This document shows positions 7,432 through 62,172 of a stretch of DNA of 64,000 nt, piece after piece. A model generated the notes under the pieces. That model ran no database searches, had not been told where the DNA came from, and saw nothing but the letters and a program-made list of their open reading frames with translations. Within the stretch, counting starts at the first letter, position 1. Each line of letters begins with the position of its first letter. This DNA comes from Candidatus Dormibacteria bacterium (GTDB taxonomy: Bacteria > Chloroflexota > Dormibacteria > DASZGP01). Location: contig JBHEMS010000014.1 in the NCBI GenBank assembly GCA_046262455.1, positions 4,730 to 68,729 on the forward strand, given 5' to 3'. The position numbers were made by a program, and so were the translations under genes.

Positions 7432-7481
7432 GCCGCGGAACCTACCATGCAGCCCTGTCCCCTGCTAGCGTTGGCGCCGCA

Positions 7482-12464: not shown

Positions 12465-12475
12465 GCTCGGGCGCT

Positions 12476-14400: not shown

Positions 14401-14402
14401 CG

Positions 14403-15638
14403 GTGCGACTGCTGGTGGTCAGTAACGCCTACTGGCCTAACTTCAACGGGGGGTTCGAGATCCTGTGCGAGGAGCACGTGGGCTGGCTGGTGGGCCGGGG
14501 TCACGAGGTCGTCGTGCTGACGGTGAAATCCAGCGTCGACGGCCCGGCGCCCGGGGTGGGGCGCCACGGGGAGCGCGTGGTCCGTGGACTGGAGTTCCGG
14601 TGGGCCGACTACCAGCACCGGCACCCGGGCCCCTTGACCAGCGTCCGCCAGGAGCTGGAACAGCGGCGCCTCGTCGAAGGCCTGCTGGCGAAATGGACGC
14701 CGGACGTCGCGGCGCTCTGGGGAATGGCCGGTGTGGGCAAGTCGCTGATCGCCGAGGTACAGGAGCGGGGCGTCCCGATGGTCGCGGTCATCGGTGAGCC
14801 CTGGCCCGTGTGGGACCTGGCCTCCGACCCATGGCTGCGGAAGTGGGTTGACGGTGGGACGCCACGCATCATCAGGAAGGTGCTTGCCCCGGTGGGCCGG
14901 CGGGTGGCGCCGATCCAGCTGGCGACCGCCCTCTCTGCGGTGACCCCGCTCTACGTCAGCGAGGACGTCCGGGTCATGTCCGAGGCGGGGGTGCCGGCGT
15001 GGAGTGGTCGCGGCACGCTGGTCCCCAACGGCATCAGGGGGGAGGCCTTTCCGGCGGTGCCGCGCGAAGCCCTGCCGGCCGTGCCGCGACTGCTTTACGC
15101 AGGGCGAGTGGAGCAACGCAAGGGGCTCCACACGGTGATCGAGGCGTTGGACCAGCTGCGTCGGGAGGGGGTCGAGACGGCGCTCACGATTGCGGGCTGG
15201 GAGCACGCGACCTATGCCGCTGATATCCGCGCCGCGGTGGCCCGCGCCGGGCTGGACGATGCGGTCACATGGCGCGGTCCGGTGACCCGCGCGGCGCTGG
15301 CGATGCTCTATGGCGCGCACGACGTGCTGCTTTTCCCCACCATCTGGCGCGAGCCATTCGGTTTAGTACCGCTGGAGGCCATGGCCACCGGCTGCGCGGT
15401 GCTCGCGACCGGCACCGGCGGCTCGGCCGATTACCTCCGCGACGAGCAGAATTGCCTGCTCTTCCCGGCGGAGTCAGCAACCGGCCTGGCGGGCGCGCTG
15501 ACCCGGCTGCGCGACGAGCCGGCGCTGCTGGCGCGGCTGCGCGAGGGCGGCCGCGCGACCGCGGCGGCGCACGACTTCGAGCACTACGCGGAGACGGTGG
15601 AGCACCACCTGTTGGTCGCGGGGGGACTGGCCGCATAG
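14403..15638 (+). CDS. GT4-family glycosyltransferase
   Basis: The GTG start gives (M)RLLVVSNAYWPNFNGGFEILCEEHVGWLVGRGHEVVVLT. The C-terminal region is REPFGLVPLEAMATGCAVLAT. Confidence 0.8.
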   Translation: MRLLVVSNAYWPNFNGGFEILCEEHVGWLVGRGHEVVVLTVKSSVDGPAPGVGRHGERVVRGLEFRWADYQHRHPGPLTSVRQELEQRRLVEGLLAKWTPDVAALWGMAGVGKSLIAEVQERGVPMVAVIGEPWPVWDLASDPWLRKWVDGGTPRIIRKVLAPVGRRVAPIQLATALSAVTPLYVSEDVRVMSEAGVPAWSGRGTLVPNGIRGEAFPAVPREALPAVPRLLYAGRVEQRKGLHTVIEALDQLRREGVETALTIAGWEHATYAADIRAAVARAGLDDAVTWRGPVTRAALAMLYGAHDVLLFPTIWREPFGLVPLEAMATGCAVLATGTGGSADYLRDEQNCLLFPAESATGLAGALTRLRDEPALLARLREGGRATAAAHDFEHYAETVEHHLLVAGGLAA

Positions 15639-50992: not shown

Positions 50993-52174
50993 CTAGTCGA
51001 GGTCCTCGTGCGGGAGGTTGGGGTCGATCGTGGCCGCCACCAATTCCCCGATCTCGCCGCTGGAGTCCTTGCTGGCCACTTTCTCAGCACGGCCGCGCAT
51101 CCGGTCGAACGCATTGCGGTCGTTGATCATTTGCTCGCGCACCGCCTTGACCAACTTGCGGGGGCTGGGCGTGAAGAACCCCACCCCCTGCTCCTCGACG
51201 AAGCGTACGTTGCCCTCCTCCTGGCCGGGGACGAATCCGGTGAGGAAGATCGGCAGCCCGCTGACCAGGGCCTCGGTGATGGTGCCCGGCCCGGCCTTGG
51301 TGACGATTGCGTCGGCGGCGCGCATCAACTCCGGCATGTTGTCGACATAACCCAGGACGTGCACCCTGCCCTTCCACTTTCGCTTCTGGAGCCGGTGCTG
51401 CTCCTTGGCGTTGCGGCCGCAGACCACCACCAGTTGCAGTCCCAGGCCCGCGTTGTCGAGGGACTTCGCAAACGCCCCCAGGCGCCCGGCGCCCTCGCCA
51501 CCGGCGGCCATCAGGAGGGTCGCGTCGTCGGGGTCAAAGCTCAGGCGGCCGCGCGCCTCGCGACGTTCCTCGCGGGTGGCCGGGCCGGTGAAGTTGGGGT
51601 TGACGGGTAACCCCTCGACGTGGACCTTGCGCGGGTCCAGGCCGCGCTTGATGCAGTAGCGGCGAGCCTCGGTGGACGGGACGACCACCAGGTCGGCCCG
51701 GCGCGTCAGCCAGAACCTGTGCAGGTCGACCATGTCGGTTACCACGGTGATGAACGGGATGGTCATCGCCAGCTCGTCCAGCACCTCAATGGTGACGTGG
51801 TTGGTCAGCGGGTGGAACGACACGATGCCGTCGGGTCGCATCTCTTGGATGTGCATCCGCAGGCCGGGACGAACCTGCCGGCCGAAGATGCGGATCGCCA
51901 ACCGCATGACGGCGCGGTTGTTGGTGGCATGGAAGAGGAAGCCGTAGGTGCGCGGCAGGTGCTTGAGCATGAAGTTGTAGCGGTACACGATCCAGCCCAG
52001 CAGCGGCCCGCCCCCCTGGACGAAGGGGTCGAGCAGCTGGACGTCGAAATGGCCGGGGTACTGGAGTTCCAGCGCGCGGGCCACCGCACTGGCGGAGGCG
52101 CGGTGGCCGCCGCCGGTGTCAGAGAAGAGGAACAGGATCCGGGGCCGCACTTCGGTGCGTAGGATACCTAGCAT
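50993..52174 (-). CDS. MGDG-synthase-like (GT28, UgtP-type) glycolipid glycosyltransferase
   Basis: RILFLFSDTGGGHRASASAVARAL is the MGDG_synth N-terminal signature, and the C-terminus has TKAGPGTITEALVSGLPIFL. The start was chosen at Met 52174; GTG about 27 nt downstream is an alternative. Confidence 0.8.
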   Translation of the reverse strand: MLGILRTEVRPRILFLFSDTGGGHRASASAVARALELQYPGHFDVQLLDPFVQGGGPLLGWIVYRYNFMLKHLPRTYGFLFHATNNRAVMRLAIRIFGRQVRPGLRMHIQEMRPDGIVSFHPLTNHVTIEVLDELAMTIPFITVVTDMVDLHRFWLTRRADLVVVPSTEARRYCIKRGLDPRKVHVEGLPVNPNFTGPATREERREARGRLSFDPDDATLLMAAGGEGAGRLGAFAKSLDNAGLGLQLVVVCGRNAKEQHRLQKRKWKGRVHVLGYVDNMPELMRAADAIVTKAGPGTITEALVSGLPIFLTGFVPGQEEGNVRFVEEQGVGFFTPSPRKLVKAVREQMINDRNAFDRMRGRAEKVASKDSSGEIGELVAATIDPNLPHEDLD

Positions 52175-53225
52175 GAGTTCCGCGGCCGGACCGCTGAGCG
52201 CCGGCCGCCGCCTGGGCGTGGGTGAAATCACCGTCCAGGTGCACAGCGAGGCGTCGGGCTTCGACGACCTCCGGGCCGCGTGGGAAGACCTCGAGACGCG
52301 TTCGGCGGAAGACAACATCTTCATGACCCATCACTGGCAGCACTCCTGGTGGCGCGAGCTTGGCGCCCCCGGCATGGAGCTCCACCTGATGGCCTTCCGT
52401 CACGGCGACAGGCTGGTCGGGCTGGGTTCTGCGTACACCGAGCGGGCGGGCGGTTTCCCGGTGCTGCGCTTCGGGGGTGGCCTGGAAGTCACCGACTACA
52501 CCGGGTTTTTGGTCGAGGGCGGCTACCAGGAGGCCGTCGGGCGCGCGTTCCTGGAGCACTGCCTGGAGTCACCGGCGCTGGTGCTCGACCTGCATTTTCT
52601 GCGCGCCGACGGCGTCACGCTGGCCGCCCTGACGCAGGCCGCCCGCGACATGGACCGCCGCTACAACATCGAGAAGGAGGAGGTCAGCCCGCGCATCCTG
52701 CTCCCCGGGGACTTTGAGGCCTACCTCGGCAGCCTCAACAAAAAGGACCGTCACGAGCTCCGGCGCAAGCGGCGCCGTTTGGAAGAGGCCGGTGGCTGGA
52801 CCGTGCATGACTCCACCGACGAGACTGTCGAAGCCGACCTCGACACGTTCTTTCAACTGCACGCCGCCAGCACGCGGGCCAAGGCCGACTTCCTGACGCC
52901 CGATATCCAGCGCTTCTTCAGGCATATCTGCCACCACCTTTTGGAAGAAGGTTGGCTTTCGCTGAGGCTGCTCATTCACCAGGGTCGCGCGGTGGCCGCC
53001 GTGCTCGGCTTCGTCTACCGCGACAAGCTGCTGCTGTACAACTCGGGCTACGAGCCCGGCATGCTCAGCCTGAGCCCGGGGCTGGTCCTCATGAGTGAGG
53101 AGATCCGCCTGGCGATGGAGGCGGGACTCAGCGAGGTCGACTTCCTCCGCGGGGACGAGAAGTACAAGTACGACCTGGGCGCCACCGATGTCGACCTGGT
53201 CCACCTGACGGTCGAACTGGCCTAA
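52173..53225 (+). CDS. GNAT-fold acetyltransferase (CelD/BcsL / FemAB-like, Acetyltransf_6)
   Basis: It has a FemAB-like size. WQHSWWRELG...LSLNKKDRHELRRKRRRLEE...LLLYNSGYEP...VDFLRGDEKYKYDLGA matches CelD-family conserved blocks. Confidence 0.7.
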   Translation: MSSAAGPLSAGRRLGVGEITVQVHSEASGFDDLRAAWEDLETRSAEDNIFMTHHWQHSWWRELGAPGMELHLMAFRHGDRLVGLGSAYTERAGGFPVLRFGGGLEVTDYTGFLVEGGYQEAVGRAFLEHCLESPALVLDLHFLRADGVTLAALTQAARDMDRRYNIEKEEVSPRILLPGDFEAYLGSLNKKDRHELRRKRRRLEEAGGWTVHDSTDETVEADLDTFFQLHAASTRAKADFLTPDIQRFFRHICHHLLEEGWLSLRLLIHQGRAVAAVLGFVYRDKLLLYNSGYEPGMLSLSPGLVLMSEEIRLAMEAGLSEVDFLRGDEKYKYDLGATDVDLVHLTVELA

Positions 53226-53286
53226 CCCTCCGGGGACGCGCGCCCTGCTGGCATAAGTCCCCCGCGGGTAGTGTTTTGACCAGGGT

Positions 53287-54579
53287 ATGAGCGAATTCCG
53301 GGGAGTCGAGCCGAGGACCATTGCGGTGATCGCCGCGCATTCCTGCCCGTACAGCGAGGTGGGTGGCGCGGAGAACGGCGGCATGTCGGTCTACATCCGC
53401 TCGGTGACCGAGGCCCTGGCGCGCCGCGGCCTGCGAAGCGTGATCTTCACGCGCAAGGAGTACGCCGCGGCCCCCAGTGACCTCGACGTGCCCGACGGGT
53501 GCCACCTGGTCCACGTCAGTGCAGGGCCGGAGACCGTGCTCGACAAGGCGGGCCTCTTCTACCACCTGCCGGAGTTCGCGGCCGCCGTCAAGCAGTGGAC
53601 GCGGGACAACGGCGTCGACTTCGACCTGGTCCACAGCCATTACTGGCTGAGCGGTTGGGTGGGGCGGAGGCTCAGTCAGTCCTGGGGCGTGCCGTGGTTG
53701 CACATGGCTCACACCCTGGGCCGCGTCAAGGACCGCGACAGACCGGAGGGTGCCAACCGCGAGAGCGACCAGCGGATCGCGGTGGAATTGGAGATCGCCC
53801 GCAGCTGCAACCGCCTGGTGGCCCCAACCGCCAGGGAGATTGACGACCTCGCCTACCTCTATGGCGCGGACCGCGGGTGTATCGATGAGGTTCCGCTGGG
53901 CGTCGACCTCGAGCGCTTTCACCCCACCGACCCGGCCGCCCTGCGTGCTCGCCTCGGGCTGGCCGCGGGCGAGCAGGTCATCCTGTTCACCGGCCGGCTG
54001 GAGCGCCTGAAGGGCGTCGAGACCGTCATCCGCGCCCTGCCGCTGTTGCCCCGCGAGGCGGCGCCGCGCCGCCTGCTGATCGCGGGGGCGGACAGCGGCA
54101 ACGGCGTGCATGAGGCCGGCGCTTTCTCCAGCGAGCGCGACCGCCTGGAGTCCCTGGCACGGGAGCTGGGCGTCGGCGCGGAGGTGACGTTCCTGGGCGC
54201 CGTGGACCACCAGGATCTCCCGCAGTACTACAGCCTGGCCGACGTCTGCGCGGTGCCGTCGTACAGCGAGTCCTTCGGGCTGGTCGCCCTCGAGGCGCAG
54301 GCCTGCGGCACCCCGGTCGTGGCCTCGCGCGTCGGCGGCCTCGCCCAGGTCGTTGAGGACGGCCGGACCGGCTTCACCATCCGGGACCACGACCCCGCGG
54401 TCTACGCCGAGCGTCTTGGGCTTCTGTTAGCGGATGACGAGCTCCGCGCGAGCATGGGCGCGGCCGCGATCCAGCTGGCCCACGGTTACACGTGGGAGGC
54501 CACCGCGAGCCTTCTGGAGGCGGTCTACCGCTCCACCGTGCAGAGCTATGGCGACGCCCTGGGGTCCCTGCTGGGCTGA
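53287..54579 (+). CDS. GT4 retaining glycosyltransferase, MshA-like (D-inositol-3-phosphate glycosyltransferase family)
   Basis: GGAENGGMSVYIRSVTEALARRG...VHSHYWLSGWVG...HMAHTLGRVK...PSYSESFGLVALEAQACGTPVVAS closely parallels mycobacterial MshA blocks. Confidence 0.78.
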   Translation: MSEFRGVEPRTIAVIAAHSCPYSEVGGAENGGMSVYIRSVTEALARRGLRSVIFTRKEYAAAPSDLDVPDGCHLVHVSAGPETVLDKAGLFYHLPEFAAAVKQWTRDNGVDFDLVHSHYWLSGWVGRRLSQSWGVPWLHMAHTLGRVKDRDRPEGANRESDQRIAVELEIARSCNRLVAPTAREIDDLAYLYGADRGCIDEVPLGVDLERFHPTDPAALRARLGLAAGEQVILFTGRLERLKGVETVIRALPLLPREAAPRRLLIAGADSGNGVHEAGAFSSERDRLESLARELGVGAEVTFLGAVDHQDLPQYYSLADVCAVPSYSESFGLVALEAQACGTPVVASRVGGLAQVVEDGRTGFTIRDHDPAVYAERLGLLLADDELRASMGAAAIQLAHGYTWEATASLLEAVYRSTVQSYGDALGSLLG

Positions 54580-54606
54580 ACCGACCCGGCTGGTACGCTC
54601 GGACCG

Positions 54607-55338
54607 ATGCGCCCGCCGACCGCGATCTGCTTCGACATGGGGTACACGCTGCTGGAGCATGTGCCAACCGGTCCAGAGCTGTACCGACGGGCACTGAGCT
54701 CGCTGGGGCACGACTTCGAGCTGTCGCTGGTCGAAGCGGCCCACGGCCCGGCCCGCGAACTCTACGTCCGGGCCACCCGGGAGGGAAGGGACTTCGAGTC
54801 CTCGATGGAGATGGCCCGGGAGTTCTGGACGGAGTACAACCTGCTGGTGCTCGGCGGCCTCGGGATCGAGGGTGAGAGGCTGACCGAGCTGGTCGAGGCC
54901 GTGTACACCCGGGCGTGGAGCCCGGATGCCTGGCAGCCATTCCCCGATGCGCTCCCCACGCTCGACGAACTCCGGCGGATGGGCATACGCATGGCCATCG
55001 TCTCCAACTTCGTCGACACCCTGCCCGAGGTTTGCCGGAGCCACGGCCTGACCGAGTACTTCGAGGTCATCGTTGCCTCCGTGGATGCGGGCGCCATGAA
55101 ACCCGACAAGCGGATCTGGGACGTGGCGCTGCGTCGCATGGGCGTCGACCCCGGGAGTGCGTGGCACGTCGGCGACAACTACTGGGCCGACGTCATGGGT
55201 GCGCGGGCGGCCGGGATTCACCCGGTATTCCTGGACCGTGGCGGCATCCTGCCCCGTGCCGATTGTGCGCACATCTCGAACCTCGACGAACTGCTGGTCA
55301 TGCTCCGCGCGGTGGAGGGCGCAGAGGAGGCGGCGTGA
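54607..55338 (+). CDS. HAD-superfamily (subfamily IA) phosphatase/hydrolase
   Basis: ICFDMGYTLL (motif I DxG/DxT variant), IVSNF (motif II) and KPDKRIW...HVGDNYWADVMGARAAG (motifs III/IV). Confidence 0.83.
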   Translation: MRPPTAICFDMGYTLLEHVPTGPELYRRALSSLGHDFELSLVEAAHGPARELYVRATREGRDFESSMEMAREFWTEYNLLVLGGLGIEGERLTELVEAVYTRAWSPDAWQPFPDALPTLDELRRMGIRMAIVSNFVDTLPEVCRSHGLTEYFEVIVASVDAGAMKPDKRIWDVALRRMGVDPGSAWHVGDNYWADVMGARAAGIHPVFLDRGGILPRADCAHISNLDELLVMLRAVEGAEEAA

Positions 55339-56249
55339 CACCCGCCACCCCGGAGTCCGCCACCGGGTCGCTACCCGAGGCTCTCAGCGAATTCATCAAG
55401 GCCAACTCCGGCCGCGGGCTCGACGCCGTCGCCCTGCGCATCGTCGATGCCGGGGGAGGGCCGGTGATCACCGGCCAGGTGCTCACCCGGAGGCAGGGCA
55501 CCGACGTCGAGAGGCTCGCCCGGTCCCACGGGGCCCAGCTCGACATACGCGTGGTCGCCGACCCCCACGCCGGGCTTGAGGACGGCTGGTGCGACATCGC
55601 CGTCGACGTGCTCGACCTGTGGCGAGTGCCCGAGCGCGCCGGGGAGGAGATGGGACGGCAGACGCAGTACATGGCCGCCGACGGCCCGCTGCGCCGGCTC
55701 GGCCGGGTTGGACAGTGGGTGCTGGTCCAGGGCCCCGACCTGGCAATGGGCTGGGCGGCCGCCGCCGACCTGCGGGACGCCGCGCCGCGCTCCGGCAACC
55801 CCTGGGCCGAGATTTCGCGTGCGGTCGAGGGGGAGGCGTGCGGGCCGGCCGGCGGGCAGGACGGCGCGACGGCGGAGGCCCTGGTGCAGCGGGCCCGCGC
55901 CGAGCTCGAGGTGGCGTATGTGTGGGGCGGGACCACGCACGCCGGCTTTGACTGCTCGGGTCTGATGCTGCGGATGTTCCACGATGTGACCGGCGTGCTC
56001 CTGCCCCGCCACACAGGAGACCAGCGCCGGGTGGGCCGCCGGGTGGTCGCCGGCGAGGTCGCCACCGGCGACCTGCTCTTCGCCACGCCTCGCGGCCAGA
56101 AGATCGGCCACGTCCTCCTGGTGACCTCGGCGCACGCCGTTCTCCATGCCTGTCGCACCGAGCAGCGGGTCATCGAGGAGAGCTTCGAAGACAACGCCGC
56201 GCGCTACCAGCCCCAGGGGTGGCGGCGGCCGGTTAGCCTGTCGCGATGA
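55335..56249 (+). CDS. NlpC/P60 (C40) family peptidase with an uncharacterised N-terminal region of about 190 aa
   Basis: YVWGGTTHAGFDCSGLMLRMF carries the catalytic Cys, followed by GDLLF...GHVLLV (His). The GTG start overlaps the HAD stop (GTGA). Confidence 0.8.
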   Translation: MTPATPESATGSLPEALSEFIKANSGRGLDAVALRIVDAGGGPVITGQVLTRRQGTDVERLARSHGAQLDIRVVADPHAGLEDGWCDIAVDVLDLWRVPERAGEEMGRQTQYMAADGPLRRLGRVGQWVLVQGPDLAMGWAAAADLRDAAPRSGNPWAEISRAVEGEACGPAGGQDGATAEALVQRARAELEVAYVWGGTTHAGFDCSGLMLRMFHDVTGVLLPRHTGDQRRVGRRVVAGEVATGDLLFATPRGQKIGHVLLVTSAHAVLHACRTEQRVIEESFEDNAARYQPQGWRRPVSLSR

Positions 56250-57829
56250 CACCGGCGGCCGGCGACACCCTGAACATCGGGGATCGCATCGACTCCTGGG
56301 CGGACCTCTTCGCGCTGCGCGAGGCTGCCGTACACGTGGTGGGCGCCGGGAGCGTGGAGGGCGCGCATCTGCTGCTCTTCCTGGCCGCCCATGGCTTCAC
56401 GCGGCTAGTGGGCCACGACTTCAGCACCCCGGGGGCGTTCCCGCGCGCGTTCAAGCGGGTGCACGTGGGCTGGCGGATGGAGCAGCGGCAGGAGATGCTC
56501 GACCGACTCCTGTCAGCGGTGGACATGCGCTATCGCGACCGGTACCTCGAGGGTGTCGACGACGCGGACGCCATCGCCGTCACCCAGGGTTGGTACCTCT
56601 ACGACAACAACCGCCGCCTCGCCGAGAGCGACGACCTGCAGCGTCGCTTCTTCAGCCTGGTCCAGCTGTACCTCGGGCTGGCCCCGGGCCCCGTGATCGG
56701 TGTGACCGGCAGCCAGGGCAAGTCGACGACCACCCGGTTGCTGCGCGACATCCTGGTTGGGGCCGGGCGTCAGGTCATCTACGCCGGCAATGACCGCCAC
56801 GGGCAGCAGGCGCTCGACCTGCTGGAGAAGGCAGGCGGCCAGACGCACCTTGTGCTGGAGATCAGCAACCGCCATCTCAAGATGCTGCACCGCAGCCCGG
56901 GAGTGGCCGTGGTGACCAACGTCTACGCCAACCACCTCGAGGAGCACGGCGGCTGGGACGGATATGTCGCGGCCAAGGCCAACCTCGTTCGCTACCAACG
57001 GGAGGGTGATATCGCGATACTCAACGCCGACCTGCCGGTGACCCGGGAGATGGCCGCGCTGACCCCGGCCCGGACGTATTGGTTCGGCGAGTCGGTGGCG
57101 GATGCCACCGGAGGGCGCGATTCCTCGGCGGCCGCCGGCGCCCTGGAGGTGGGCGCCTCGAAGATCACCGGCGTCGCTGCCGAGGGCTTGCCCGGAGCTG
57201 AGCAGTTCGCCGCCTTCGAGCTGCGGCTGGCGGAGATCCCGGTTGCCGGGCGGCACAACGCCCTCAACGTCGCGGCGGCGGCGGCGGCCGCCCTGGCGAT
57301 GGGGGTTGGGCGGGGCAATGTCTACGACGCGGTGCGCAAGTTCAAGGGGCTGAAGCACCGCATCCAGTTCATCTGGTCGAGTGATGGCGTCAAGTACTAC
57401 GACGACCTCAACAGCACCACTCCCACGGCGACAGAGGTCGCGTTACGCACGCTGGAGGGCGAGGTGATCTGGATCTTCGGCGGTGAGGACAAGGGACTCG
57501 ACAGCACCGCCCTTGCAGACACCGCCAGCCGGCGGGTGCGGTGCGCCCTGGCGCTGCCGGGAGGGGGCACCGAGGCGATTGTCCGCAACCTCGTGGCAAA
57601 AGGGGTTGACGTCGAGCGTGTCGACGATTTCAGCGCGGCGGTGCGCCGGGCGGTTGAGCTGGCCACGCCCGGCGACGCGGTCCTGCTGTCCCCGGCCTGC
57701 CCGGGATTCTTCACGCTTTACTACGTTGGGGTGGACGAGGACACCGGCTTCAAAAAGCAGGTCCGGGAGGCGACCCTCCCTATTTCTCCTCCTGCTCGTA
57801 AACCTCGAAAGTCAGGGGATCCTGGCTGA
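56246..57829 (+). CDS. Mur ligase family protein, MurD-like, outside any dcw context
   Basis: VIGVTGSQGKSTTT (P-loop), GRHNALNVAAAAAAALAMGV, FKGLKHRIQF and LSPACPGF. The N-terminal Rossmann-like region carries insertions. The ATG overlaps the upstream stop (ATGA). Confidence 0.78.
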   Translation: MTPAAGDTLNIGDRIDSWADLFALREAAVHVVGAGSVEGAHLLLFLAAHGFTRLVGHDFSTPGAFPRAFKRVHVGWRMEQRQEMLDRLLSAVDMRYRDRYLEGVDDADAIAVTQGWYLYDNNRRLAESDDLQRRFFSLVQLYLGLAPGPVIGVTGSQGKSTTTRLLRDILVGAGRQVIYAGNDRHGQQALDLLEKAGGQTHLVLEISNRHLKMLHRSPGVAVVTNVYANHLEEHGGWDGYVAAKANLVRYQREGDIAILNADLPVTREMAALTPARTYWFGESVADATGGRDSSAAAGALEVGASKITGVAAEGLPGAEQFAAFELRLAEIPVAGRHNALNVAAAAAAALAMGVGRGNVYDAVRKFKGLKHRIQFIWSSDGVKYYDDLNSTTPTATEVALRTLEGEVIWIFGGEDKGLDSTALADTASRRVRCALALPGGGTEAIVRNLVAKGVDVERVDDFSAAVRRAVELATPGDAVLLSPACPGFFTLYYVGVDEDTGFKKQVREATLPISPPARKPRKSGDPG

Positions 57830-57929
57830 TCACCTCGAGGTCAGCGCCACAGCCCTCGCACACGATGATCTCGCCCAACTGGGGTTGCTCATCGGGGACC
57901 TCGGCATTGCAATCGGGACAGACTGCCAT
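57780..57929 (-). CDS. LysW-like zinc-ribbon amino-group carrier protein (49 aa)
   Basis: MAVCPDCNAEVPDEQPQLGEIIVCEGCGADLEVISQDPLTFEVYEQEEK aligns along its length with Thermus LysW (MVGTCPECGAEL...LGELVVCEDCGAELEV...EDWGE). The start is Met at 57929. The 3' end overlaps the MurD-like gene by 50 nt. Confidence 0.78.
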   Translation of the reverse strand: MAVCPDCNAEVPDEQPQLGEIIVCEGCGADLEVISQDPLTFEVYEQEEK

Positions 57930-57947
57930 GACGACGATTTTAGATCG

Positions 57948-58889
57948 ATGAGCGCGACATCCACAGGACAAACGCCGCTCGAGGACGCCGGCACCCTGGC
58001 GTCGTGGGCCGGCCTGGACCGACTCTGGCTCAAACGCGAAGACCTCAACCCCACCGGTTCGCACAAGGACCGTGGCGCTGAGCGCCAGGTGGCCGCCTGT
58101 CTGCAGCGGGGACAGCGGGTAGCCGTGATCTCCTCGTCCGGCAACGCCGCCCTGGCCGCGGCTGCCCAGAGCTCGGCCCGCGGCGTCACGCTCGTGGCCC
58201 TCCTCTCACCGCTGACCGAGCCCGCCAAGGTGGCCGCGATCCGTGCCGCCGGCGCGCGTGTCGTGGTGACAACCAAGCCGATCAACTTCACCATCCGCCT
58301 GCAGCGCGTCTGTGGATGGCCTGACCTGCGACCGTCGCAGTCGCCGGAGGCACTGGCGGGTTTTGCGGGGCTCGGTACCGAGCTTGCCGCGCAGCTGCCG
58401 GATGGCACAAGCCTCATCGGGTATGCCAGCAGCGGGACCACCTTCCAGGCCGTCGGCGGGGCCTTGCGGGATGCCGGGCGGCGGCTCCCCCTCCACCCCG
58501 TGCAGGGCGGGCTGGTCAACGGCCTGAGCCGGGAGTTCGGGCGCGCGGGGGACGGCCGGCGCAGCATGGTGGGCGACCTCGGGGTGAAGGTTACGGCGCG
58601 GGCCGCGGAGGTCCTTGCGCTGGTGCGGGACAGTGGTGGCCAGGCGTGGTGGGTTGATGACGGCGCCATCGTCGAGGCCAGGGACGCGCTCACCGCCGCG
58701 GGGCACGCGGTGGCCCCGGAGTGCTGGGCCGCGCTGGCCGGGCTTCGCCTCGCCGCGCGTGAGGCGGGCATCCGCGAGGCCTGCCTGCTGCTGACCGGGA
58801 GGGCGCTGCCGCCTGGCGAGCACGACGTACTGCCGCCGCCCCTTGAGACGTTCGCGGACGTGGTGGACAGCCTGGCGGATCTGCGCTGA
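57948..58889 (+). CDS. fold-type II PLP-dependent enzyme (ThrC/CysK-like)
   Basis: LWLKREDLNPTGSHKDRG contains the PLP lysine, followed by ISSSGNAALAAA and SGTTFQAVG (Gly-rich phosphate loop). The start is Met at 57948, 18 nt from the lysW-like start. Confidence 0.8.
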   Translation: MSATSTGQTPLEDAGTLASWAGLDRLWLKREDLNPTGSHKDRGAERQVAACLQRGQRVAVISSSGNAALAAAAQSSARGVTLVALLSPLTEPAKVAAIRAAGARVVVTTKPINFTIRLQRVCGWPDLRPSQSPEALAGFAGLGTELAAQLPDGTSLIGYASSGTTFQAVGGALRDAGRRLPLHPVQGGLVNGLSREFGRAGDGRRSMVGDLGVKVTARAAEVLALVRDSGGQAWWVDDGAIVEARDALTAAGHAVAPECWAALAGLRLAAREAGIREACLLLTGRALPPGEHDVLPPPLETFADVVDSLADLR

Positions 58890-60265
58890 TGGTGCGAGCA
58901 CTTGCATCCGCCGCGAAGCTTGCCCAGGACCACCTCGACGGCCTCGGGCTCCGCCCGGTGGTGGTGGCCCACGACATCTGGCTGGCGGCCGGTCTCCAGC
59001 GCGCCCTGCCCTCGACCGCCCTCGCCTGCATCTCAGCCTGCGATGCCGTGCGCGTCCTGCGGGCGCGGGGCACGGACGTCTTCTGCCTGTCGGAACAAAT
59101 CGGCCCGGAGGTGACTGCCGGGATGTCGTCGCTCGACCTCCTGCAGCACCCGGAGACGGCGGCATTCTTCCGCCGGCTGGGGCCAACCGCGGTGCTGTCG
59201 TTCAAACCGTCGGAGCGCATCGGCACCGCGATCACCGCGCTGGGTGGCCGGCTGCTATCCGCGCCGAGCAGCGCCGCCCGCGCCTACGAGAACAAGCTCG
59301 CTTTCATCGGCGCCGCCGAGCGGGCCGGTGTCCCCCGGCCACGGTGGGAGGCTCGCACACTGCCTCTGGATTTCGCGTCGCTGGCCGCCGACCTTGGCAG
59401 CCCACTGGTGATCCAGGGCCCGCGGGGAAACGCCGGCCAACGTACATGGCTGGTGCATGACCAGGAGCAGCTCGAGGCCATCTCAGGGCGCGAGCGTACC
59501 GGCAACGTGCGCGTGGCCGAGTACGTCGAGGGAATGCCCTTCACAGCCTCCGGCGTGTCGTTCTCGTCGCCCGGGACAGGTCTGGATGGACGCCGCCTGG
59601 CCGCGGTCGTCGAGCCGTGCCGGCAGGTGACGGGGGTGGATTGGCTCACGCCGGAGCGCCTGGGTTCGTGCGGCAACGCGTGGGGCGAACCATCCCTGGA
59701 AGCCCACAGGCCGGAAATCACGCGCTGCGTCAGGGCGCTGGGCGCCGACCTTGCGGCAAACAACTACCACGGGGTGTTTGGTGTCGACTTCGTCCTCGCC
59801 GAGGACGGGCCGTTGGTCATCGAGGTCAACCCCAGGATGGTGGCCTCGCTGCCACTCGCGACCGAGCTGGAGGTGGAGGCGGGTCGCGCGCCGCTGGAGT
59901 TACTGCACCTGCTGGAGTTGCTGGACGCCGACCTCGACCTGCTTGATGTCGATGAGGGCGAGACGCCCATGGGAGTCGCCACACAGCTCATCGTGCACCG
60001 GCTGCCCGGTGACGCGGATGAGCGACCGCAGAGTGGCATATATCGCCTGCAGTCGGGGAGGATATCCCGCGTCGGCGACGGTGCCGGTCTGGAGGATCTG
60101 CGGCGAGATGACGACCTGCTCCTGCTCACCCGTAAGCGTGGAGAACCGGTGACCGATCGGAAGGAATTCGCGCGCGCATACGCGCGCTCGGCGCTGGGCG
60201 AAAATGCTCCAGGGTTACGTCAGCTGGTCAGCGAAATGCGCGCCGGTACCCTTTCGGCCCAGTAG
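58889..60265 (+). CDS. ATP-grasp ligase with N-terminal pre-ATP-grasp domain
   Basis: ARAYENKLAFIGAAERAGVPRP...LVIQGPRGNAGQRTWLV...VAEYVEG...GVFGVDFVLAEDGPLVIEVNPRM. The ATG overlaps the upstream stop (TGATG). Confidence 0.8.
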   Translation: MVRALASAAKLAQDHLDGLGLRPVVVAHDIWLAAGLQRALPSTALACISACDAVRVLRARGTDVFCLSEQIGPEVTAGMSSLDLLQHPETAAFFRRLGPTAVLSFKPSERIGTAITALGGRLLSAPSSAARAYENKLAFIGAAERAGVPRPRWEARTLPLDFASLAADLGSPLVIQGPRGNAGQRTWLVHDQEQLEAISGRERTGNVRVAEYVEGMPFTASGVSFSSPGTGLDGRRLAAVVEPCRQVTGVDWLTPERLGSCGNAWGEPSLEAHRPEITRCVRALGADLAANNYHGVFGVDFVLAEDGPLVIEVNPRMVASLPLATELEVEAGRAPLELLHLLELLDADLDLLDVDEGETPMGVATQLIVHRLPGDADERPQSGIYRLQSGRISRVGDGAGLEDLRRDDDLLLLTRKRGEPVTDRKEFARAYARSALGENAPGLRQLVSEMRAGTLSAQ

Positions 60266-61386
60266 CCGTCGACCTGCTTCCCCAGGTCTGGGCACACCAA
60301 ATCGGCGAGCGGACGCAGGGATTGGCGCACCGATTTGCTGTTGAGCGTCGCCAGCAGGTGCGTTTCCTCAGCCGCCGCGAGGGGCCGCGCACCTGGGATG
60401 GATGCGGCCAGGGGCACACGCAAATCGCCAAGCACCTCGGCAAGGTCGCATCTCGCCGGGACATTGTTGGCGACCAGCCAGAGCTTGTTGCGATGACCAA
60501 GGCTGCGTAGTACCGAGACCCCGCGGTAGAGGTCGTACACCCCGGCGGCCGTCGGCGTGAAGACGTAGTAAATATCGTCAACCGTCTCGAGGAGAAAGCT
60601 GTTCAAGGCATCGACGCCCGTGCCGAGGTCCATGACGACGACGTCAAAGCCTGTCTCGTCGAGGTGAGTGTTGACGCGGGCCACCATCTCCGGGAGCCCT
60701 TCGGTGGCGGCACCGGTTGGCGGTGGCAATAGCACCCGTGCCCCGCTCTCGTGGCGGAGCAGCACACGCTCCACGCTGGCATCGTCGACGTCGCGACCTG
60801 TCAGGTCTGCCGCGGTCGGTCCGTCAAGGCCGAGGCGGATGCAGGTGGTCGAGGCCCGCACGTCCAGGTCCAGCAGGGCGACCCGAAGGGAAGCTGCGCC
60901 CCAGCAACCCGATGCCAGCCCACCCGCGACCTCGGCGGCCAGCGTGGACCTGCCCGTACCACCGCGCATCGAGAAGAATGCAACGCGTCGTGCTCGCCGG
61001 CCCGGATAACGGCGCAGGGGCACGATGCGCGCGGACGGGACGACCGCAACGTCATCGCCGGTGTCATCGCCGGTTGACGCGACTGCCAGCACCACGGGGC
61101 TCGCGACTGTGACCGGGGGCGAGCTTCGCGGACGAAGTCGGTAGGCAGCGTAGAGAAAAATCCAGCGGTCGAGGGGTCGGCCCGCAACGCTGCCCCACGC
61201 CATCGCGGCGCCAACGGCCAGCAACAGCAGGCCTGGCGGGACGCGGATGAAGAGCGGCAGGCGGCTCGAAAGGATGCCCCAACCGGCCATCGAGAAAACC
61301 ACCAGGTACACAAGGTGCGGCGCGGTGAGTCCCAACGCCACGCGATCCTCCGCGTCGAGTCCCTGGGGGGCACGCCGTCCGTCCAT
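60220..61386 (-). CDS. fusion of a PrgI-like two-TM N-terminal module with a MinD/ParA-family P-loop domain carrying a Lys-to-Arg Walker A
   Basis: The N-terminus (LDAEDRVALGLTAPHLVYLVVFSMAGWGI...GRPLDRWIFLYAAYRLRPR) resembles actinobacterial PrgI-family proteins. VAFFSMRGGTGRSTLAAEVA stands where xKGGxGKT/S is expected, followed by VVVMDLGTG. Confidence 0.6.
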   Translation of the reverse strand: MDGRRAPQGLDAEDRVALGLTAPHLVYLVVFSMAGWGILSSRLPLFIRVPPGLLLLAVGAAMAWGSVAGRPLDRWIFLYAAYRLRPRSSPPVTVASPVVLAVASTGDDTGDDVAVVPSARIVPLRRYPGRRARRVAFFSMRGGTGRSTLAAEVAGGLASGCWGAASLRVALLDLDVRASTTCIRLGLDGPTAADLTGRDVDDASVERVLLRHESGARVLLPPPTGAATEGLPEMVARVNTHLDETGFDVVVMDLGTGVDALNSFLLETVDDIYYVFTPTAAGVYDLYRGVSVLRSLGHRNKLWLVANNVPARCDLAEVLGDLRVPLAASIPGARPLAAAEETHLLATLNSKSVRQSLRPLADLVCPDLGKQVDGYWAERVPARISLTS

Positions 61387-61560
61387 GTCGCAACCATGAC
61401 CTCTCAAATTCCGCGGTGACTTTTCAGGCGGGGCGATAATCGTCAGGAAATTCCGCGGACATTGCGAGGACGAATTGCGGTCACGCGTCAACCCCGCGTG
61501 ACAATATTTGGCCGAAACCGATATGCTGGCGAAAATCCGCCAATCGGAGGACGCCACCAC

Positions 61561-62172
61561 ATGGCCGAGCAAACACCCAACACGGGGGCCGCATCGCCCA
61601 CACCGAAGCGTGCGACCACCAGACGCCGCAGCAGCACGGCAAAACGCGCCGGCGCCTCCGCGACGGCGAAGCCCGCGACCACGCGTAAGCGCGCTGCAGC
61701 CAAACGCACAACGGCAAAGGCCGCCACAGCAAAACGCACAACGGCAAAGCGCACAACGGCAAAGCGCGCCGCCGCAAAACGCACCACCGCAAAGCGCACA
61801 ACGGCAAAACGCGCCACCGCCGCCGCGACGAGCACAACCAAGCGCGCCACCAAGAAGCGGTCCACCACACGCAAGGCGTCAACGGCGCGCAAGAGCACGT
61901 CCAGCGCCACCGCCAAGCGGCGTGGCCGTCCGCCGGGTTCCCGCAACCGCGCCGCGGCGAGCACCAATCCCGCTGACGCGATGAGCAAGCGCATATCGGA
62001 GTTGATCAACGAAAACAGGACGCTCAAGGCTCGTGTCAATGAGCTGGAGTCCGGTTGGAAGAAGATCGAGCATGCGCTCGGCAGCAACGTCAGCAAGGCC
62101 AAGCGCACCGTGCGTCGGGGCGCCAGGGCCGCGACCAAGAAGGTTGAGGAAGCGATCAACGCCGTAACCTGA
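61561..62172 (+). CDS. basic repeat protein: AKRTT repeats, an AT-hook (RRGRPPG) and a C-terminal coiled coil
   Basis: The ATG is preceded by GGAGG. The product has 8 AKRTT-type pentapeptide repeats, KRRGRPPGSRN and a heptad-like ISELINENRTLKARVNELESGWKKIEHAL. Confidence 0.7.
   Translation: MAEQTPNTGAASPTPKRATTRRRSSTAKRAGASATAKPATTRKRAAAKRTTAKAATAKRTTAKRTTAKRAAAKRTTAKRTTAKRATAAATSTTKRATKKRSTTRKASTARKSTSSATAKRRGRPPGSRNRAAASTNPADAMSKRISELINENRTLKARVNELESGWKKIEHALGSNVSKAKRTVRRGARAATKKVEEAINAVT
61700..61819. repeat. eight tandem 15-bp units (CAAARCGCACAACGG-like) inside the basic-protein gene
   Basis: Read directly: the units start at 61700, 61715, 61730, 61745, 61760, 61775, 61790 and 61805. 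Confidence 0.85.

What the first reader, a model, noticed from the sequence alone, without database searches (positions are those of the whole stretch)
55335..60265. Orphan LysW-like carrier protein with ATP-grasp, ThrC-like PLP enzyme, MurD-like ligase and NlpC/P60 peptidase: candidate new amino-group-carrier pathway
**Seen in the sequence:**
- A 49-aa zinc-ribbon ORF (57780-57929, minus strand) aligns over its whole length with LysW.
- Its start lies 18 nt, divergently, from a fold-type II PLP enzyme (57948-58889).
- That PLP gene is translationally coupled (TGATG) to a 458-aa ATP-grasp ligase (58889-60265).
- The carrier gene's 3' end overlaps by 50 nt the end of a MurD-like acyl-phosphate-forming ligase (56246-57829).
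- The MurD-like gene is itself coupled (ATGA, GTGA) to an NlpC/P60 peptidase.
- No LysY, LysZ, LysJ or LysK homologs are in the window.

**Established:** LysW and ArgW carry 2-aminoadipate or glutamate on a C-terminal Glu gamma-carboxyl after ligation by the RimK-type ATP-grasp LysX. In Streptomyces, amino-group carrier proteins have been co-opted for non-proteinogenic amino acid biosynthesis.

**Inference:** a carrier protein sits with two different carboxylate-amine ligases, a PLP enzyme able to do beta/gamma replacement chemistry, and a gamma-glutamyl-type peptidase that could release product. This gene set does not match the known Lys/Arg/DADH clusters, so it may encode a new carrier-tethered pathway.
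Basis: partly seen in the sequence, partly recalled or inferred. Interest (0 to 1): 0.8.

Follow-up and report, generated by a model that had tools for sequence, protein, structure and literature searches.

The report
LysW-like carrier in cell-wall module
A tiny zinc-ribbon protein related to the lysine-pathway carrier LysW, but ending in -Glu-Glu-Lys, always travels with four enzymes. In one group of bacteria this set sits exactly where the cell-wall gene murD normally lies, so it is probably an undescribed carrier-based step in making the D-glutamate part of the peptidoglycan precursor.

Summary
In detail: every ORF, junction and family call at 55335-60265 checks out. The window is a Candidatus Dormibacteria MAG.

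The small protein has a true LysW fold. However, its tail is an invariant ...EEK, not the canonical EDWGE, and it scores below the lysW cut-off.

The set carrier + ThrC-like PLP enzyme + biotin-carboxylase/PurD-like ATP-grasp + NlpC/P60 peptidase, usually with a MurD-derived ligase, recurs in Dormibacterota, Anaerolineae, Caldilineae and a low-GC lineage. Gene fusions link NlpC/P60 to the Mur ligase, and the PLP enzyme to the ATP-grasp.

In a metagenome sample, 26 of 26 EEK-tailed loci carried module genes and 0 of 41 EDWGE loci did. LysX/Z/J/K homologues showed the opposite pattern.

In 16 of 16 long low-GC loci the module sits inside the dcw cluster between mraY and ftsW, where murD normally is, and no murD is seen there. 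The MurD-like ligase keeps the residues that bind the D-Glu alpha-carboxylate but has replaced the gamma-carboxylate site.

Best reading, which is inferred: a reverse-polarity carrier holds Glu on the tail lysine. [quoted passage not shown]

The parts
57780..57929 (-). 49-aa LysW-fold zinc-ribbon carrier of the EEK subfamily (CxxC...CxxC, very acidic, one Lys).
   Evidence: - Pfam Zn_ribbon_LysW scores 47.5 bits.
- PDB 3wwl LysW matches at E=1e-12.
- It scores below the TIGR01206 cut-off.
- 42 close homologues were found.
- It is present in every module locus.
57783..57806 (-). Codons of the C-terminal tail EVYEQEEK. The family-defining element is the invariant ...E-E-K, and Lys49 is the proposed attachment site.
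   Evidence: - The tail is identical in 40 of 42 close homologues. The other two read EVYEEEEK and ETYEQEEK.
- ...EEK is kept in Anaerolineae, Caldilineae, a second Dormibacterota class, L005, L056 and the low-GC lineages. Four loci read ...VIEEKG.
56246..57829 (+). 527-aa MurD-derived Mur ligase with an altered amine-substrate pocket.
   Evidence: - TIGR01087 scores 233.7 against 211.95.
- PDB MurD structures match at 5e-37.
- The ATP, Mg and carbamyl-Lys motifs and the T321/K348 equivalents are kept. The S415 motif is replaced, SPACxS(F/L)D becoming SPACP(G/Y/F)F.
- It is fused to NlpC/P60 in Anaerolineae.
55335..56249 (+). 304-aa cytoplasmic-looking NlpC/P60 cysteine peptidase (DCSG...GHV...H) with an N-terminal extension.
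   Evidence: - Pfam NLPC_P60 scores 71.5 bits.
- PDB relatives include gamma-D-Glu-diamino-acid endopeptidases (3h41, 2evr, 3pvq).
- The Anaerolineae fusion carries an SH3_16 domain.
- A divergent counterpart exists in the low-GC loci.
57948..58889 (+). 313-aa fold-type II PLP enzyme, ThrC-like (GSHK PLP lysine, SSSGNAA loop).
   Evidence: - Pfam PALP scores 137.8 bits.
- The best PDB matches are threonine synthases, at 1e-24 to 1e-29 with the family profile.
- It lies far below all curated cut-offs.
- It is fused to the ATP-grasp in L016 and L020.
58889..60265 (+). 458-aa ATP-grasp ligase of the biotin-carboxylase/PurD/PurK structural type. It shares a start/stop overlap with the PLP gene.
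   Evidence: - Pfam ATP-grasp_3.
- NCBIfam best match is PRK06524 at 79 bits against 684, with a weak BesA match.
- The AF2 model has pLDDT 90.5.
- Foldseek TM scores are 0.5-0.6 to biotin carboxylase, PurD and PurK.
57930..57947 (.). 18-nt A+T-rich gap (GACGACGATTTTAGATCG) between the divergent start codons of the carrier and PLP genes. No Shine-Dalgarno motif is evident.
   Evidence: - Sequence read directly.
- No sigma-70-like site was found in 57500-58300.
57759..57780 (.). G+C-rich hairpin with T-runs on both strands. It lies just 3' of the carrier stop codon and inside the ligase ORF. Possibly the carrier's terminator.
   Evidence: Terminator-like scan: 2 found against 0.3 expected.
50993..55338 (.). 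Lineage-specific neighbours: GT28/MGDG-synthase-like (50993-52324, minus strand), FemAB-like GNAT (52116-53225, plus), MshA-like GT4 (53287-54579, plus) and HAD phosphatase (54607-55338, plus; overlaps the NlpC/P60 start).
   Evidence: - Pfam and NCBIfam calls.
- These genes are syntenic only in the close Dormibacteria class: L001, L003, L004 and L007-L016 (L002 and L009 keep only part of the set).
- They are absent from all other lineages.

Best explanation
**What it is.** The locus encodes a five-part, carrier-protein-dependent module that belongs to peptidoglycan precursor synthesis. It most likely supplies and installs the D-glutamate at position 2 of the stem peptide, which is the MurD step.

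**Proposed cycle**
1. The ATP-grasp ligase activates the gamma-carboxyl of L-Glu. It joins it to the epsilon-amino group of the invariant tail lysine of the LysW-fold carrier. This is the reverse polarity of LysW, which tethers the substrate's alpha-amino group on its own C-terminal Glu.
2. The tethered Glu still has a free alpha-amino and alpha-carboxyl group, so the coupled ThrC-like PLP enzyme can act on it. The most likely reaction is epimerisation to D-Glu.
3. The MurD-derived ligase joins UDP-MurNAc-L-Ala to the alpha-amino group of the tethered D-Glu.
4. The NlpC/P60 peptidase cuts the gamma-D-glutamyl-lysine bond. [quoted passage not shown] In the simpler variant the peptidase frees D-Glu itself.

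**Shown by comparative evidence**
- The module exists as a conserved unit.
- It is strictly linked to the EEK tail.
- The gene fusions exist.
- In low-GC lineages it lies in the dcw cluster at the murD position.
- The gamma-carboxylate site of the ligase is remodelled.

**Inferred**
- The identity of the tethered amino acid.
- The lysine side chain as attachment point.
- The reaction of the PLP enzyme.
- The order of steps.
For: **Module conservation**
- Every locus with enough flank, in Dormibacterota (two depth classes), Anaerolineae, Caldilineae and L005, holds Mur ligase, carrier, PLP enzyme and ATP-grasp together. NlpC/P60 is next to them in most.
- No other flanking family is shared across lineages.

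**Fusions**
- NlpC/P60 (with SH3_16) is fused to the Mur ligase in L017 and in P0185, P0188 and P0189.
- The PLP enzyme is fused to the ATP-grasp in L016 and L020.

**Tail**
- All carriers end in ...EEK or ...EEKG.
- The Lys-Gly variants argue for a side-chain group rather than the terminal carboxylate.

**Natural control**
- Among 71 LysW-like metagenome loci, all 26 EEK loci carry module genes. None of the 41 EDWGE loci do.
- 25 EDWGE loci and 0 EEK loci carry LysX/Z/J/K homologues. L105 is a canonical example.

**dcw context**
- In 16 of 16 low-GC EEK loci longer than 5 kb the order is MurE - Fem-like - MurC - (MurB) - MurA - (MurF) - MraY - NlpC/P60-like - carrier - PLP - ATP-grasp - FtsW - MurG - FtsA - FtsZ.
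- No MurD is present in these clusters.

**Ligase pocket**
- In E. coli MurD, Lys348 and Thr321 bind the alpha-type carboxylate. Ser415 and Phe422 bind the second, gamma-type carboxylate (PMC3527612).
- All module ligases keep the T321 and K348 equivalents but replace the S415 motif.
- Their N-domain resembles that of the dcw-located MurD P0230. This suggests the UDP-MurNAc-L-Ala side is unchanged.

**Other components**
- NlpC/P60 relatives in the PDB are gamma-D-Glu-diamino-acid endopeptidases.
- The ATP-grasp weakly matches BesA, a ligase that joins L-glutamate to L-propargylglycine.
- PLP chemistry needs a free alpha-amino group, which a LysW-type tether would block. This point rests on established enzymology.
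Against: - There is no biochemical evidence. Neither the tethered residue nor the PLP reaction has been observed.
- The PLP enzyme is closest to threonine synthases, not to the fold-type II racemases.
- In Dormibacterota and Anaerolineae the module is not near dcw genes.
- I could not determine whether these genomes also have a canonical murD, murI or dat.
- The low-GC dcw clusters contain no Mur ligase of the module type. There the joining step must be done by an enzyme encoded elsewhere, or the module only makes free D-Glu.
- ddl is also missing from those clusters, so absence from the cluster is not proof of absence from the genome.
- In close Dormibacteria the module is co-transcribed with HAD, GT4 and Fem-like genes whose role the model does not explain.
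Confidence: 0.45

Rival explanations
1. The module is a carrier-tethered pathway for a small non-proteinogenic amino acid or peptide, unrelated to peptidoglycan. One or both ligases act on the carrier's C-terminal carboxylates, the PLP enzyme does beta/gamma-replacement, and NlpC/P60 releases the product.
For: - The module lies outside dcw in Dormibacterota and Anaerolineae.
- The PLP enzyme is ThrC-like with a rebuilt phosphate site, which is compatible with replacement chemistry.
- Precedents exist for amino-acid products built on carriers, such as DADH systems and pearlins.
Against: - The module is embedded at the murD position of dcw clusters in 16 of 16 long low-GC loci.
- The ligase's N-domain and alpha-carboxylate site are MurD-like.
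- A tether on a carrier carboxylate would block the alpha-amino group that PLP needs.
- The Lys-Gly tails show that the terminal carboxylate is not conserved.
Confidence: 0.2
2. The module works in peptidoglycan peptide recycling or editing. NlpC/P60 cleaves L-Ala-gamma-D-Glu-Lys fragments and the MurD-like ligase re-uses the pieces. The carrier, PLP enzyme and ATP-grasp process the released amino acids.
For: - NlpC/P60 relatives include cytoplasmic recycling enzymes of the YkfC / dipeptidyl-peptidase VI type.
- SH3_16 is the SH3 domain of that peptidase type.
- A hydrolase-ligase fusion suits a salvage shunt.
Against: - Recycling genes are not normally placed between mraY and ftsW in place of murD.
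- It does not explain a dedicated carrier with an invariant tail, or the ATP-grasp-PLP fusion.
Confidence: 0.1
3. The system post-translationally modifies the small protein itself. Examples would be a cyclic removal and re-addition of the terminal residue, as in tubulin -EEY tyrosination, or an ATP-grasp-made Lys-Glu lactam as in graspetides. The modified protein would be the functional end product.
For: - The acidic -EEK tail resembles substrates of RimK- and TTL-type ATP-grasp enzymes. The comparison rests on general knowledge.
- A peptidase and a ligase occur together and are sometimes fused.
Against: - The ATP-grasp is not of the RimK type.
- It gives no role to a PLP enzyme or a MurD-derived ligase.
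- It does not explain the dcw position.
Confidence: 0.08
4. The protein is the ordinary LysW of the alpha-aminoadipate lysine pathway and merely lies next to unrelated genes.
For: - NCBI and JGI annotate it as LysW.
- The globular domain is about 60% identical to Thermus LysW.
Against: - The tail lacks EDWGE and ends in Lys.
- It scores below the TIGR01206 cut-off.
- 0 of 26 EEK loci carry LysX/Z/J/K homologues, against 25 of 41 EDWGE loci.
- The link to the four enzymes holds across phyla.
Confidence: 0.02

Closest known systems
LysW / ArgW amino-group carrier proteins (AmCP) of lysine, arginine and DADH biosynthesis
   Same: - The zinc-ribbon globular fold is homologous (E=1e-12 to PDB 3wwl).
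- Both are very acidic.
- In both, a short flexible C-terminal tail is the obvious business end.
- Both are encoded with ATP-dependent ligases and a releasing peptidase.
   Different: - The tail is ...EEK(G), not EDWGE, and is 4 residues shorter than the Thermus tail.
- There are no LysX, LysZ, LysJ or LysK partners.
- The partner ligase is not RimK type.
- The proposed tether has the opposite polarity: the substrate carboxyl on the carrier lysine.
- The pathway context is the cell wall, not amino-acid biosynthesis.
- All AmCP systems listed in PMC11726168 use aminotransferases; none is present here.
[quoted passage not shown]
   Same: - A MurD paralogue works with an ATP-dependent epimerisation of a tethered glutamate.
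- It occurs in organisms lacking a D-Glu-forming enzyme.
- It concerns the same step of the pathway.
   Different: - In MurD2/MurL the tether is UDP-MurNAc-L-Ala itself and the epimerase (MurL) needs no cofactor domain.
- Here a separate protein carrier, a PLP enzyme, an ATP-grasp and a peptidase are involved.
- No MurL homologue was looked for.
[quoted passage not shown]
   Same: - It has three domains, the P-loop, the Mg and carbamyl-Lys motifs, and the T321/K348 equivalents.
- It passes the TIGR01087 cut-off.
   Different: - The gamma-carboxylate motif SPACxS(F/L)D is replaced by SPACP(G/Y/F)F.
- DSxxT becomes DLNSTT.
- It is not in a dcw cluster in this genome.
- It is fused to a peptidase in Anaerolineae.
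YkfC / dipeptidyl-peptidase VI type NlpC/P60 gamma-D-glutamyl-L-diamino-acid endopeptidases
   Same: - It has an NlpC/P60 catalytic domain with Cys-His-His.
- No signal peptide is evident.
- The fused Anaerolineae form has an SH3_16 domain.
   Different: - Sequence similarity is limited to the catalytic domain (E about 1e-9).
- The proposed bond is a gamma-Glu-epsilon-Lys isopeptide on a protein.
- The low-GC counterpart is too divergent for Pfam.
CysO-CysM-Mec+ (protein-bound cysteine synthesis) and pearlin scaffolds such as TglA
   Same: - A small protein or peptide C-terminus serves as a handle.
- An amino acid is made or modified on that handle by a fold-type II PLP enzyme (CysM) or other enzymes.
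- It is then released by a dedicated peptidase.
- The CysO comparison rests on general knowledge. Pearlins: PMC9303977, which appeared in the search list.
   Different: - The carrier fold is different (ubiquitin-like protein or linear peptide).
- The activation chemistry is different (adenylation/thiocarboxylate or aminoacyl-tRNA).
- The products are different.

Membership tests
LysW/ArgW amino-group carrier protein | Homologous zinc-ribbon globular domain (CxxC...CxxC). | tested here: met
   Pfam PF21344 scores 47.5 against 27. PDB 3wwl matches at E=1e-12 over residues 2-47.
LysW/ArgW amino-group carrier protein | C-terminal EDWGE-type tail ending in the Glu whose gamma-carboxyl carries the substrate. 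| tested here: not met
   The tail is EVYEQEEK, and every family member ends in ...EEK or ...EEKG. The 41 EDWGE proteins form a separate group.
LysW/ArgW amino-group carrier protein | Reaches the curated equivalog score (TIGR01206). | tested here: not met
   48.3 bits against a cut-off of 53.2. NF041070 scores 29.8 against 75.
LysW/ArgW amino-group carrier protein | Encoded with, or co-occurring with, LysX (RimK-type ligase), LysZ, LysY, LysJ and LysK. | tested here: not met
   - No LysX/Z/J/K homologue is found in the window, in 57 module loci or in 26 EEK metagenome loci.
- 25 of 41 EDWGE loci have them.
LysW/ArgW amino-group carrier protein | Covalent isopeptide between the carrier and the substrate alpha-amino group. 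| not testable with these tools
   This needs mass spectrometry of the loaded carrier.
[quoted passage not shown] | Curated equivalog score and three-domain Mur ligase architecture with ATP, Mg and carbamyl-Lys motifs. | tested here: met
   TIGR01087 scores 233.7 against 211.95. GKST, E157, H183, K198, HN and R302 equivalents are present.
[quoted passage not shown] | D-Glu alpha-carboxylate binders Thr321 and Lys348. | tested here: met
   NSTT and GGxDK are conserved in all module ligases. The residue roles come from PMC3527612.
[quoted passage not shown] | D-Glu gamma-carboxylate binders Ser415 / Phe422 (motif SPACxS(F/L)D..F). | tested here: not met
   Ser415 aligns with Gly487. The motif reads SPACP(G/Y/F)F(F/Y) in all high-GC module ligases aligned (the outlier L056 reads SPAGAYFQ), whereas dcw-located MurDs keep S(F/Y)D.
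[quoted passage not shown] | Location in the dcw cluster between mraY and ftsW. | tested here: not met
   No dcw gene is found in the window or within 10 kb in any high-GC locus. The canonical examples L055 and L057 show the expected context.
Threonine synthase (ThrC) | Fold-type II PLP enzyme with Schiff-base Lys and closest similarity to ThrC. | tested here: met
   GSHK is present. The family profile matches PDB ThrC structures at 9e-30 to 1e-24.
Threonine synthase (ThrC) | Curated score, and the residues that bind the phosphate of O-phosphohomoserine (GNT Thr; N-S...R of the NSxNPxR motif). | tested here: not met
   - The best NCBIfam ThrC models score 69-130 bits against cut-offs of 300 or more.
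- GNT is GNA here, and the aligned NS..R reads PS..A.
- The assignment of those residues to phosphate binding is from memory of the Thermus ThrC structures.
LysX / RimK-type ATP-grasp ligase | Membership of the RimK family by HMM and by structure. | tested here: not met
   - rimK_fam scores 30.7 against 143.4, and LysX_arch 19.5 against 275.6.
- The top 50 Foldseek hits of the AF2 model (pLDDT 90.5) are biotin carboxylase, PurD and PurK.
NlpC/P60 cysteine peptidase | Catalytic domain above the Pfam cut-off, with the Cys-His-His triad. | tested here: met
   PF00877 scores 71.5 against 23. FDCSG, GHV and LHA are invariant in alignment A8.

The most novel reading that the evidence does not exclude
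Bacteria of at least three distant lineages (Dormibacterota, Anaerolineae/Caldilineae and a low-GC, possibly CPR-like group) make and install the D-glutamate of peptidoglycan by a third, previously unknown route. A LysW-fold protein acts with reversed polarity: it holds L-Glu by its gamma-carboxyl on a conserved tail lysine. [quoted passage not shown] This would replace glutamate racemase, and in some lineages it occupies the genomic slot of murD.
Probability: 0.35. Interest if true: 0.9.

Novelty: new variant of a known kind. Interest (0 to 1): 0.8.

Why it matters
- **Cell-wall biochemistry.** The cytoplasmic steps of peptidoglycan synthesis are textbook biochemistry and antibiotic targets. 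Only one alternative to the MurI/MurD pair (MurD2/MurL) is described in the literature I could search. A carrier-protein route would be a second alternative, in abundant but poorly known soil and groundwater lineages.
- **Carrier proteins.** It would extend LysW-type carriers from amino-acid biosynthesis to wall synthesis. It would also show that the fold can work with the opposite tether polarity.
- **Annotation.** These proteins are currently named 'LysW' and 'MurD' in public annotation, and the ligase passes the TIGR01087 cut-off. Genome surveys of lysine pathways and of dcw genes therefore miscount them.
- **A simple rule.** The tail motif (EEK versus EDWGE) separated the two carrier classes cleanly in every locus examined here.

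Tried and rejected
**Calls that gave nothing**
- Looking up the window's own ATP-grasp product found nothing on record, because of a start-codon difference.
I judged a single-sequence model not worth a job.
The narrower A6 worked.
- The listing of cluster members gave no organism names for canonical MurDs. I could therefore not tell whether L057 (67.6% GC, dcw MurD) comes from a module-bearing lineage.

**Literature**
- Searches were run for LysW/AmCP with Mur ligase or ATP-grasp, amidoligases with NlpC, scaffold peptides, Dormibacterota peptidoglycan, and MurL or D-glutamate in CPR.
- None found a description of this module.

**Ideas considered and dropped**
- The MshA-like GT4 + HAD + GNAT neighbours make this a low-molecular-weight-thiol cluster. 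These genes are confined to one Dormibacteria class.
- The divergent N-domain of the ligase means loss of UDP binding. The same long N-domain occurs in a dcw-located MurD.
- Cyanophycin-like polymerisation by ATP-grasp plus Mur ligase. Nothing supports it.
- The PLP enzyme plus ATP-grasp act as alanine racemase / Ddl analogues. This explains neither the carrier nor the peptidase, and there is no Ddl similarity.

Full report
**1. The observation**

- The window has about 70% G+C. Its ATP-grasp protein is identical to one from a Candidatus Dormibacteria MAG.
  - HAD 54607-55338 and NlpC/P60 55335-56249 share GTGA.
  - NlpC/P60 and the Mur ligase (56246-57829) share ATGA.
  - The 49-aa ORF lies at 57780-57929 on the minus strand and overlaps the ligase's 3' end by 50 nt.
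  - Its start lies 18 nt from the start of the PLP gene (57948-58889).
  - The PLP gene's TGA overlaps the ATG of the ATP-grasp gene (58889-60265).
- Pfam and NCBIfam confirm each family.
- The small protein matches Thermus LysW at E=1e-12. However, it misses the curated lysW cut-off (48.3 against 53.2), and its tail is different.

**2. The small protein defines its own subfamily**

- 42 close homologues, all 48-51 aa when full length, keep the four cysteines. Forty of them keep the tail EVYEQEEK exactly; the other two differ by one residue.
- In locus L003 the gene does not overlap the ligase gene, yet the tail is unchanged. The tail is therefore not a by-product of the overlap.
- In more distant loci the tail varies, but it always ends in EEK:
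  - DFYEDEEK in L005;
  - LFEEEEK in Anaerolineae and Caldilineae;
  - PFEDEEK or PFVDEEK in a second Dormibacterota class;
  - LIEEEK in L056.
- A profile search of 1.84 billion representatives gave 873 hits. Among the best 150, 107 proteins are 110 aa or shorter. Of these, 24 end in EEK and 28 in WGE.
- The protein is thus a LysW-fold protein that fails the defining tail feature of LysW.

**3. The gene set is a conserved module**

- Close Dormibacteria loci, with ATP-grasp identity down to 46%, keep nine genes in order.
- A scan of 185,579 species genomes with an ATP-grasp alignment gave 48 loci.
- Every locus with enough flank holds Mur ligase, carrier, PLP enzyme and ATP-grasp together. 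NlpC/P60 lies beside them in most.
- The GT28, Fem-like, GT4 and HAD genes are confined to the close Dormibacteria. No other flanking family is shared by all lineages.
- The carrier gene is co-directional with the enzymes in Anaerolineae, Caldilineae and L005. It is inverted in Dormibacterota.
- Two kinds of fusion tie the enzymes into pairs:
  - SH3_16-NlpC/P60-Mur ligase, in 860-905-aa proteins of Anaerolineae;
  - PLP enzyme-ATP-grasp, in L016 and L020.

**4. What the enzymes are and are not**

*ATP-grasp*
- It has no close solved relative.
- Its AF2 model (pLDDT 90.5) resembles biotin carboxylase, PurD and PurK at TM 0.5-0.6.
- It is far below the RimK and LysX cut-offs. It has a weak match to BesA, the L-propargylglycine--L-glutamate ligase.

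*PLP enzyme*
- It is closest to threonine synthases.
- It scores at most 130 bits against cut-offs of 300 or more.
- In the alignment, GNT reads GNA and the NS..R motif reads PS..A. These are residues I recall as binding the substrate phosphate in ThrC.
- The SSSGN loop is invariant.

*Ligase*
- It passes the murD cut-off, and databases name it MurD.
- It keeps the ATP, Mg and carbamyl-lysine motifs.
- It keeps the equivalents of Thr321 and Lys348, but Ser415 aligns with Gly. The conserved SPACxS(F/L)D motif reads SPACP(G/Y/F)F in all high-GC module ligases aligned.
- In E. coli MurD, Lys348 and Thr321 bind the carboxylate next to the nitrogen. Ser415 and Phe422 bind the distal carboxylate (PMC3527612).
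- Its long N-domain is shared with P0230, a MurD that sits next to ftsW in a dcw cluster. The nucleotide-substrate side therefore looks unchanged.

*NlpC/P60*
- It has the catalytic Cys-His-His.
- No signal sequence is evident.
- Its PDB relatives include gamma-D-Glu-diamino-acid endopeptidases.

**5. The turn: a natural control and a dcw context**

- A metagenome scan with EEK-type carriers returned 71 LysW-like loci. They split cleanly:
  - 41 have EDWGE tails and none has a module gene;
  - 26 have EEK(G) tails or adjoining module genes. These are the 24 found by script, L085 read by hand (tail LLEEEK), and the 1.1-kb fragment L087, whose carrier tail could not be read. All 26 have module genes.
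- LysX, LysZ, LysJ and LysK homologues occur in 25 EDWGE loci and in no EEK locus. L105 is a textbook example.
- The EEK loci of this sample have 36-47% G+C.
- In all 16 that exceed 5 kb (15 counted, plus L085), the module lies inside the division and cell-wall cluster.
  - The order is MurE - Fem/ATE-like - MurC - (MurB) - MurA - (MurF) - MraY - a 180-250-aa protein - carrier (opposite strand) - PLP enzyme - ATP-grasp - FtsW - MurG - FtsA - FtsZ.
- The 180-250-aa protein has GxDCSG, GDLIR..H and HSS motifs. It aligns with the module NlpC/P60 profile with the catalytic residues in register (hhalign probability 67%, E=5e-5; weak Pfam hit).
- MurD is the only Mur ligase missing from these clusters, and the module occupies its usual slot.

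**6. Mechanism**

The pieces fit one scheme:
- A PLP enzyme needs a free alpha-amino group. A LysW-type tether would block that group. A tether through the substrate's side-chain carboxyl onto a carrier lysine would not. This would explain why the terminal residue changed from Glu to Lys.
- The Lys-Gly tails of four loci show that the terminal carboxylate is not what is conserved.
- An ATP-grasp that activates a Glu carboxyl group could load the carrier; BesA, which ligates L-glutamate, is the weak precedent.
- The fused or coupled PLP enzyme acts on the tethered Glu, most plausibly inverting it.
- The ligase has an intact alpha-carboxylate site and a rebuilt gamma-carboxylate site. That is what one expects for an enzyme accepting D-Glu whose gamma-carboxyl is occupied.

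My confidence, in layers:
- that this is a distinct, conserved carrier module: about 0.9;
- that it serves peptidoglycan precursor synthesis at the D-Glu / MurD step: about 0.45-0.6;
- that the detailed cycle is right: about 0.3-0.35.

**7. Weak points**

- Nothing is biochemical.
- The PLP enzyme is not specifically racemase-like.
- In the high-GC lineages the module is not near dcw genes.
- I could not search whole genomes for murI, dat or a second murD.
- The low-GC clusters hold no module-type Mur ligase. There the coupling enzyme must lie elsewhere, or the module only yields free D-Glu. ddl is missing from those clusters too.
- The taxonomy of the low-GC lineage is unknown. CPR is a guess from the compact gene order.

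**8. Comparison and novelty**

- The known LysW-type systems are lysine, arginine/ornithine, DADH and the Serratia cluster (PMC11726168). All use LysX-type loading and aminotransferases.
- The only known alternative for installing D-Glu is MurD2/MurL (PMC8788868). It epimerises Glu on the nucleotide precursor without a protein carrier.
- Six literature searches found no description of the present module.
- I file it as a new variant of a known kind, the LysW-fold carrier systems, with a real chance of being a new route in cell-wall synthesis.

Noticed in passing
window 56246-57829; P0116-P0224: [quoted passage not shown] The carrier is named 'lysine biosynthesis protein LysW'. Surveys of dcw genes or of lysine pathways in Chloroflexota and Dormibacterota will miscount both.
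   Followed up: partly
window 57930-57947 and 57759-57780: - The divergent carrier and PLP genes are separated by only 18 A+T-rich nt. No Shine-Dalgarno or sigma-70-like site is evident, so the transcripts may be leaderless or the promoters may lie inside the neighbouring ORFs.
- A hairpin with T-runs on both strands lies just after the carrier's stop, inside the ligase ORF.
- The carrier gene is also inverted relative to the dcw genes in the low-GC loci.
   Followed up: partly
window 61462-62172 (+): A 236-aa ORF is rich in Lys, Ala, Thr and Arg, with about 7 copies of a 15-nt unit (TAKRT-type repeats, 61701-61820) and a C-terminal coiled-coil-like end. It looks like a histone-H1/AlgP-like basic repeat protein.
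   Followed up: partly
window 60220-61572 (-); L003 9361-13730; L004 9403-13868: The ORF is a ParA/MinD/CpaE-like ATPase with a weak PrgI-like N-terminal part. In more distant Dormibacteria the same position is followed by T2SSE/T2SSF (Tad-pilus-like) genes. These genes are missing in the window and in L001.
   Followed up: no
window 50993-55338; L079 12498-13103; L072 13975-14760: Aminoacyl-tRNA-transferase-like genes lie near the module in both the Dormibacteria and the low-GC dcw clusters. In Dormibacteria this is a FemAB-like Acetyltransf_6 gene, and in the low-GC clusters an ATE_C-like gene next to MurE. In Dormibacteria a GT28 (MurG-related fold), an MshA-like GT4 and a HAD phosphatase are co-linear, and the HAD stop overlaps the NlpC/P60 start.
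   Followed up: partly
P0241; other proteins: - One EEK-type carrier is a tandem duplication (103 aa, two zinc ribbons, tail LIEEEK).
- The same profile search shows further LysW-fold families with long poly-acidic tails (e.g. ...DDEDDEDDGWD, ...EDDWDWEDEEDEE). These belong to neither the EDWGE nor the EEK class and are of unknown function.
   Followed up: no
L056 (JGI 3300018065, 41% G+C) 7001-15470: This is a dispersed version of the module. A module-type Mur ligase, an EEK carrier (tail LIEEEK) and a PLP enzyme lie within 7 kb. They are separated by many small ORFs without Pfam matches, and no NlpC/P60 was detected.
   Followed up: partly
L038 1904-6182 and L025-L053: In the second Dormibacterota class the module is preceded by MoxR-type AAA and VWA genes. 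A conserved 293-aa protein without Pfam match overlaps the NlpC/P60 start. A GrpB-family gene follows in L038; a conserved downstream ORF follows across the class.
   Followed up: no
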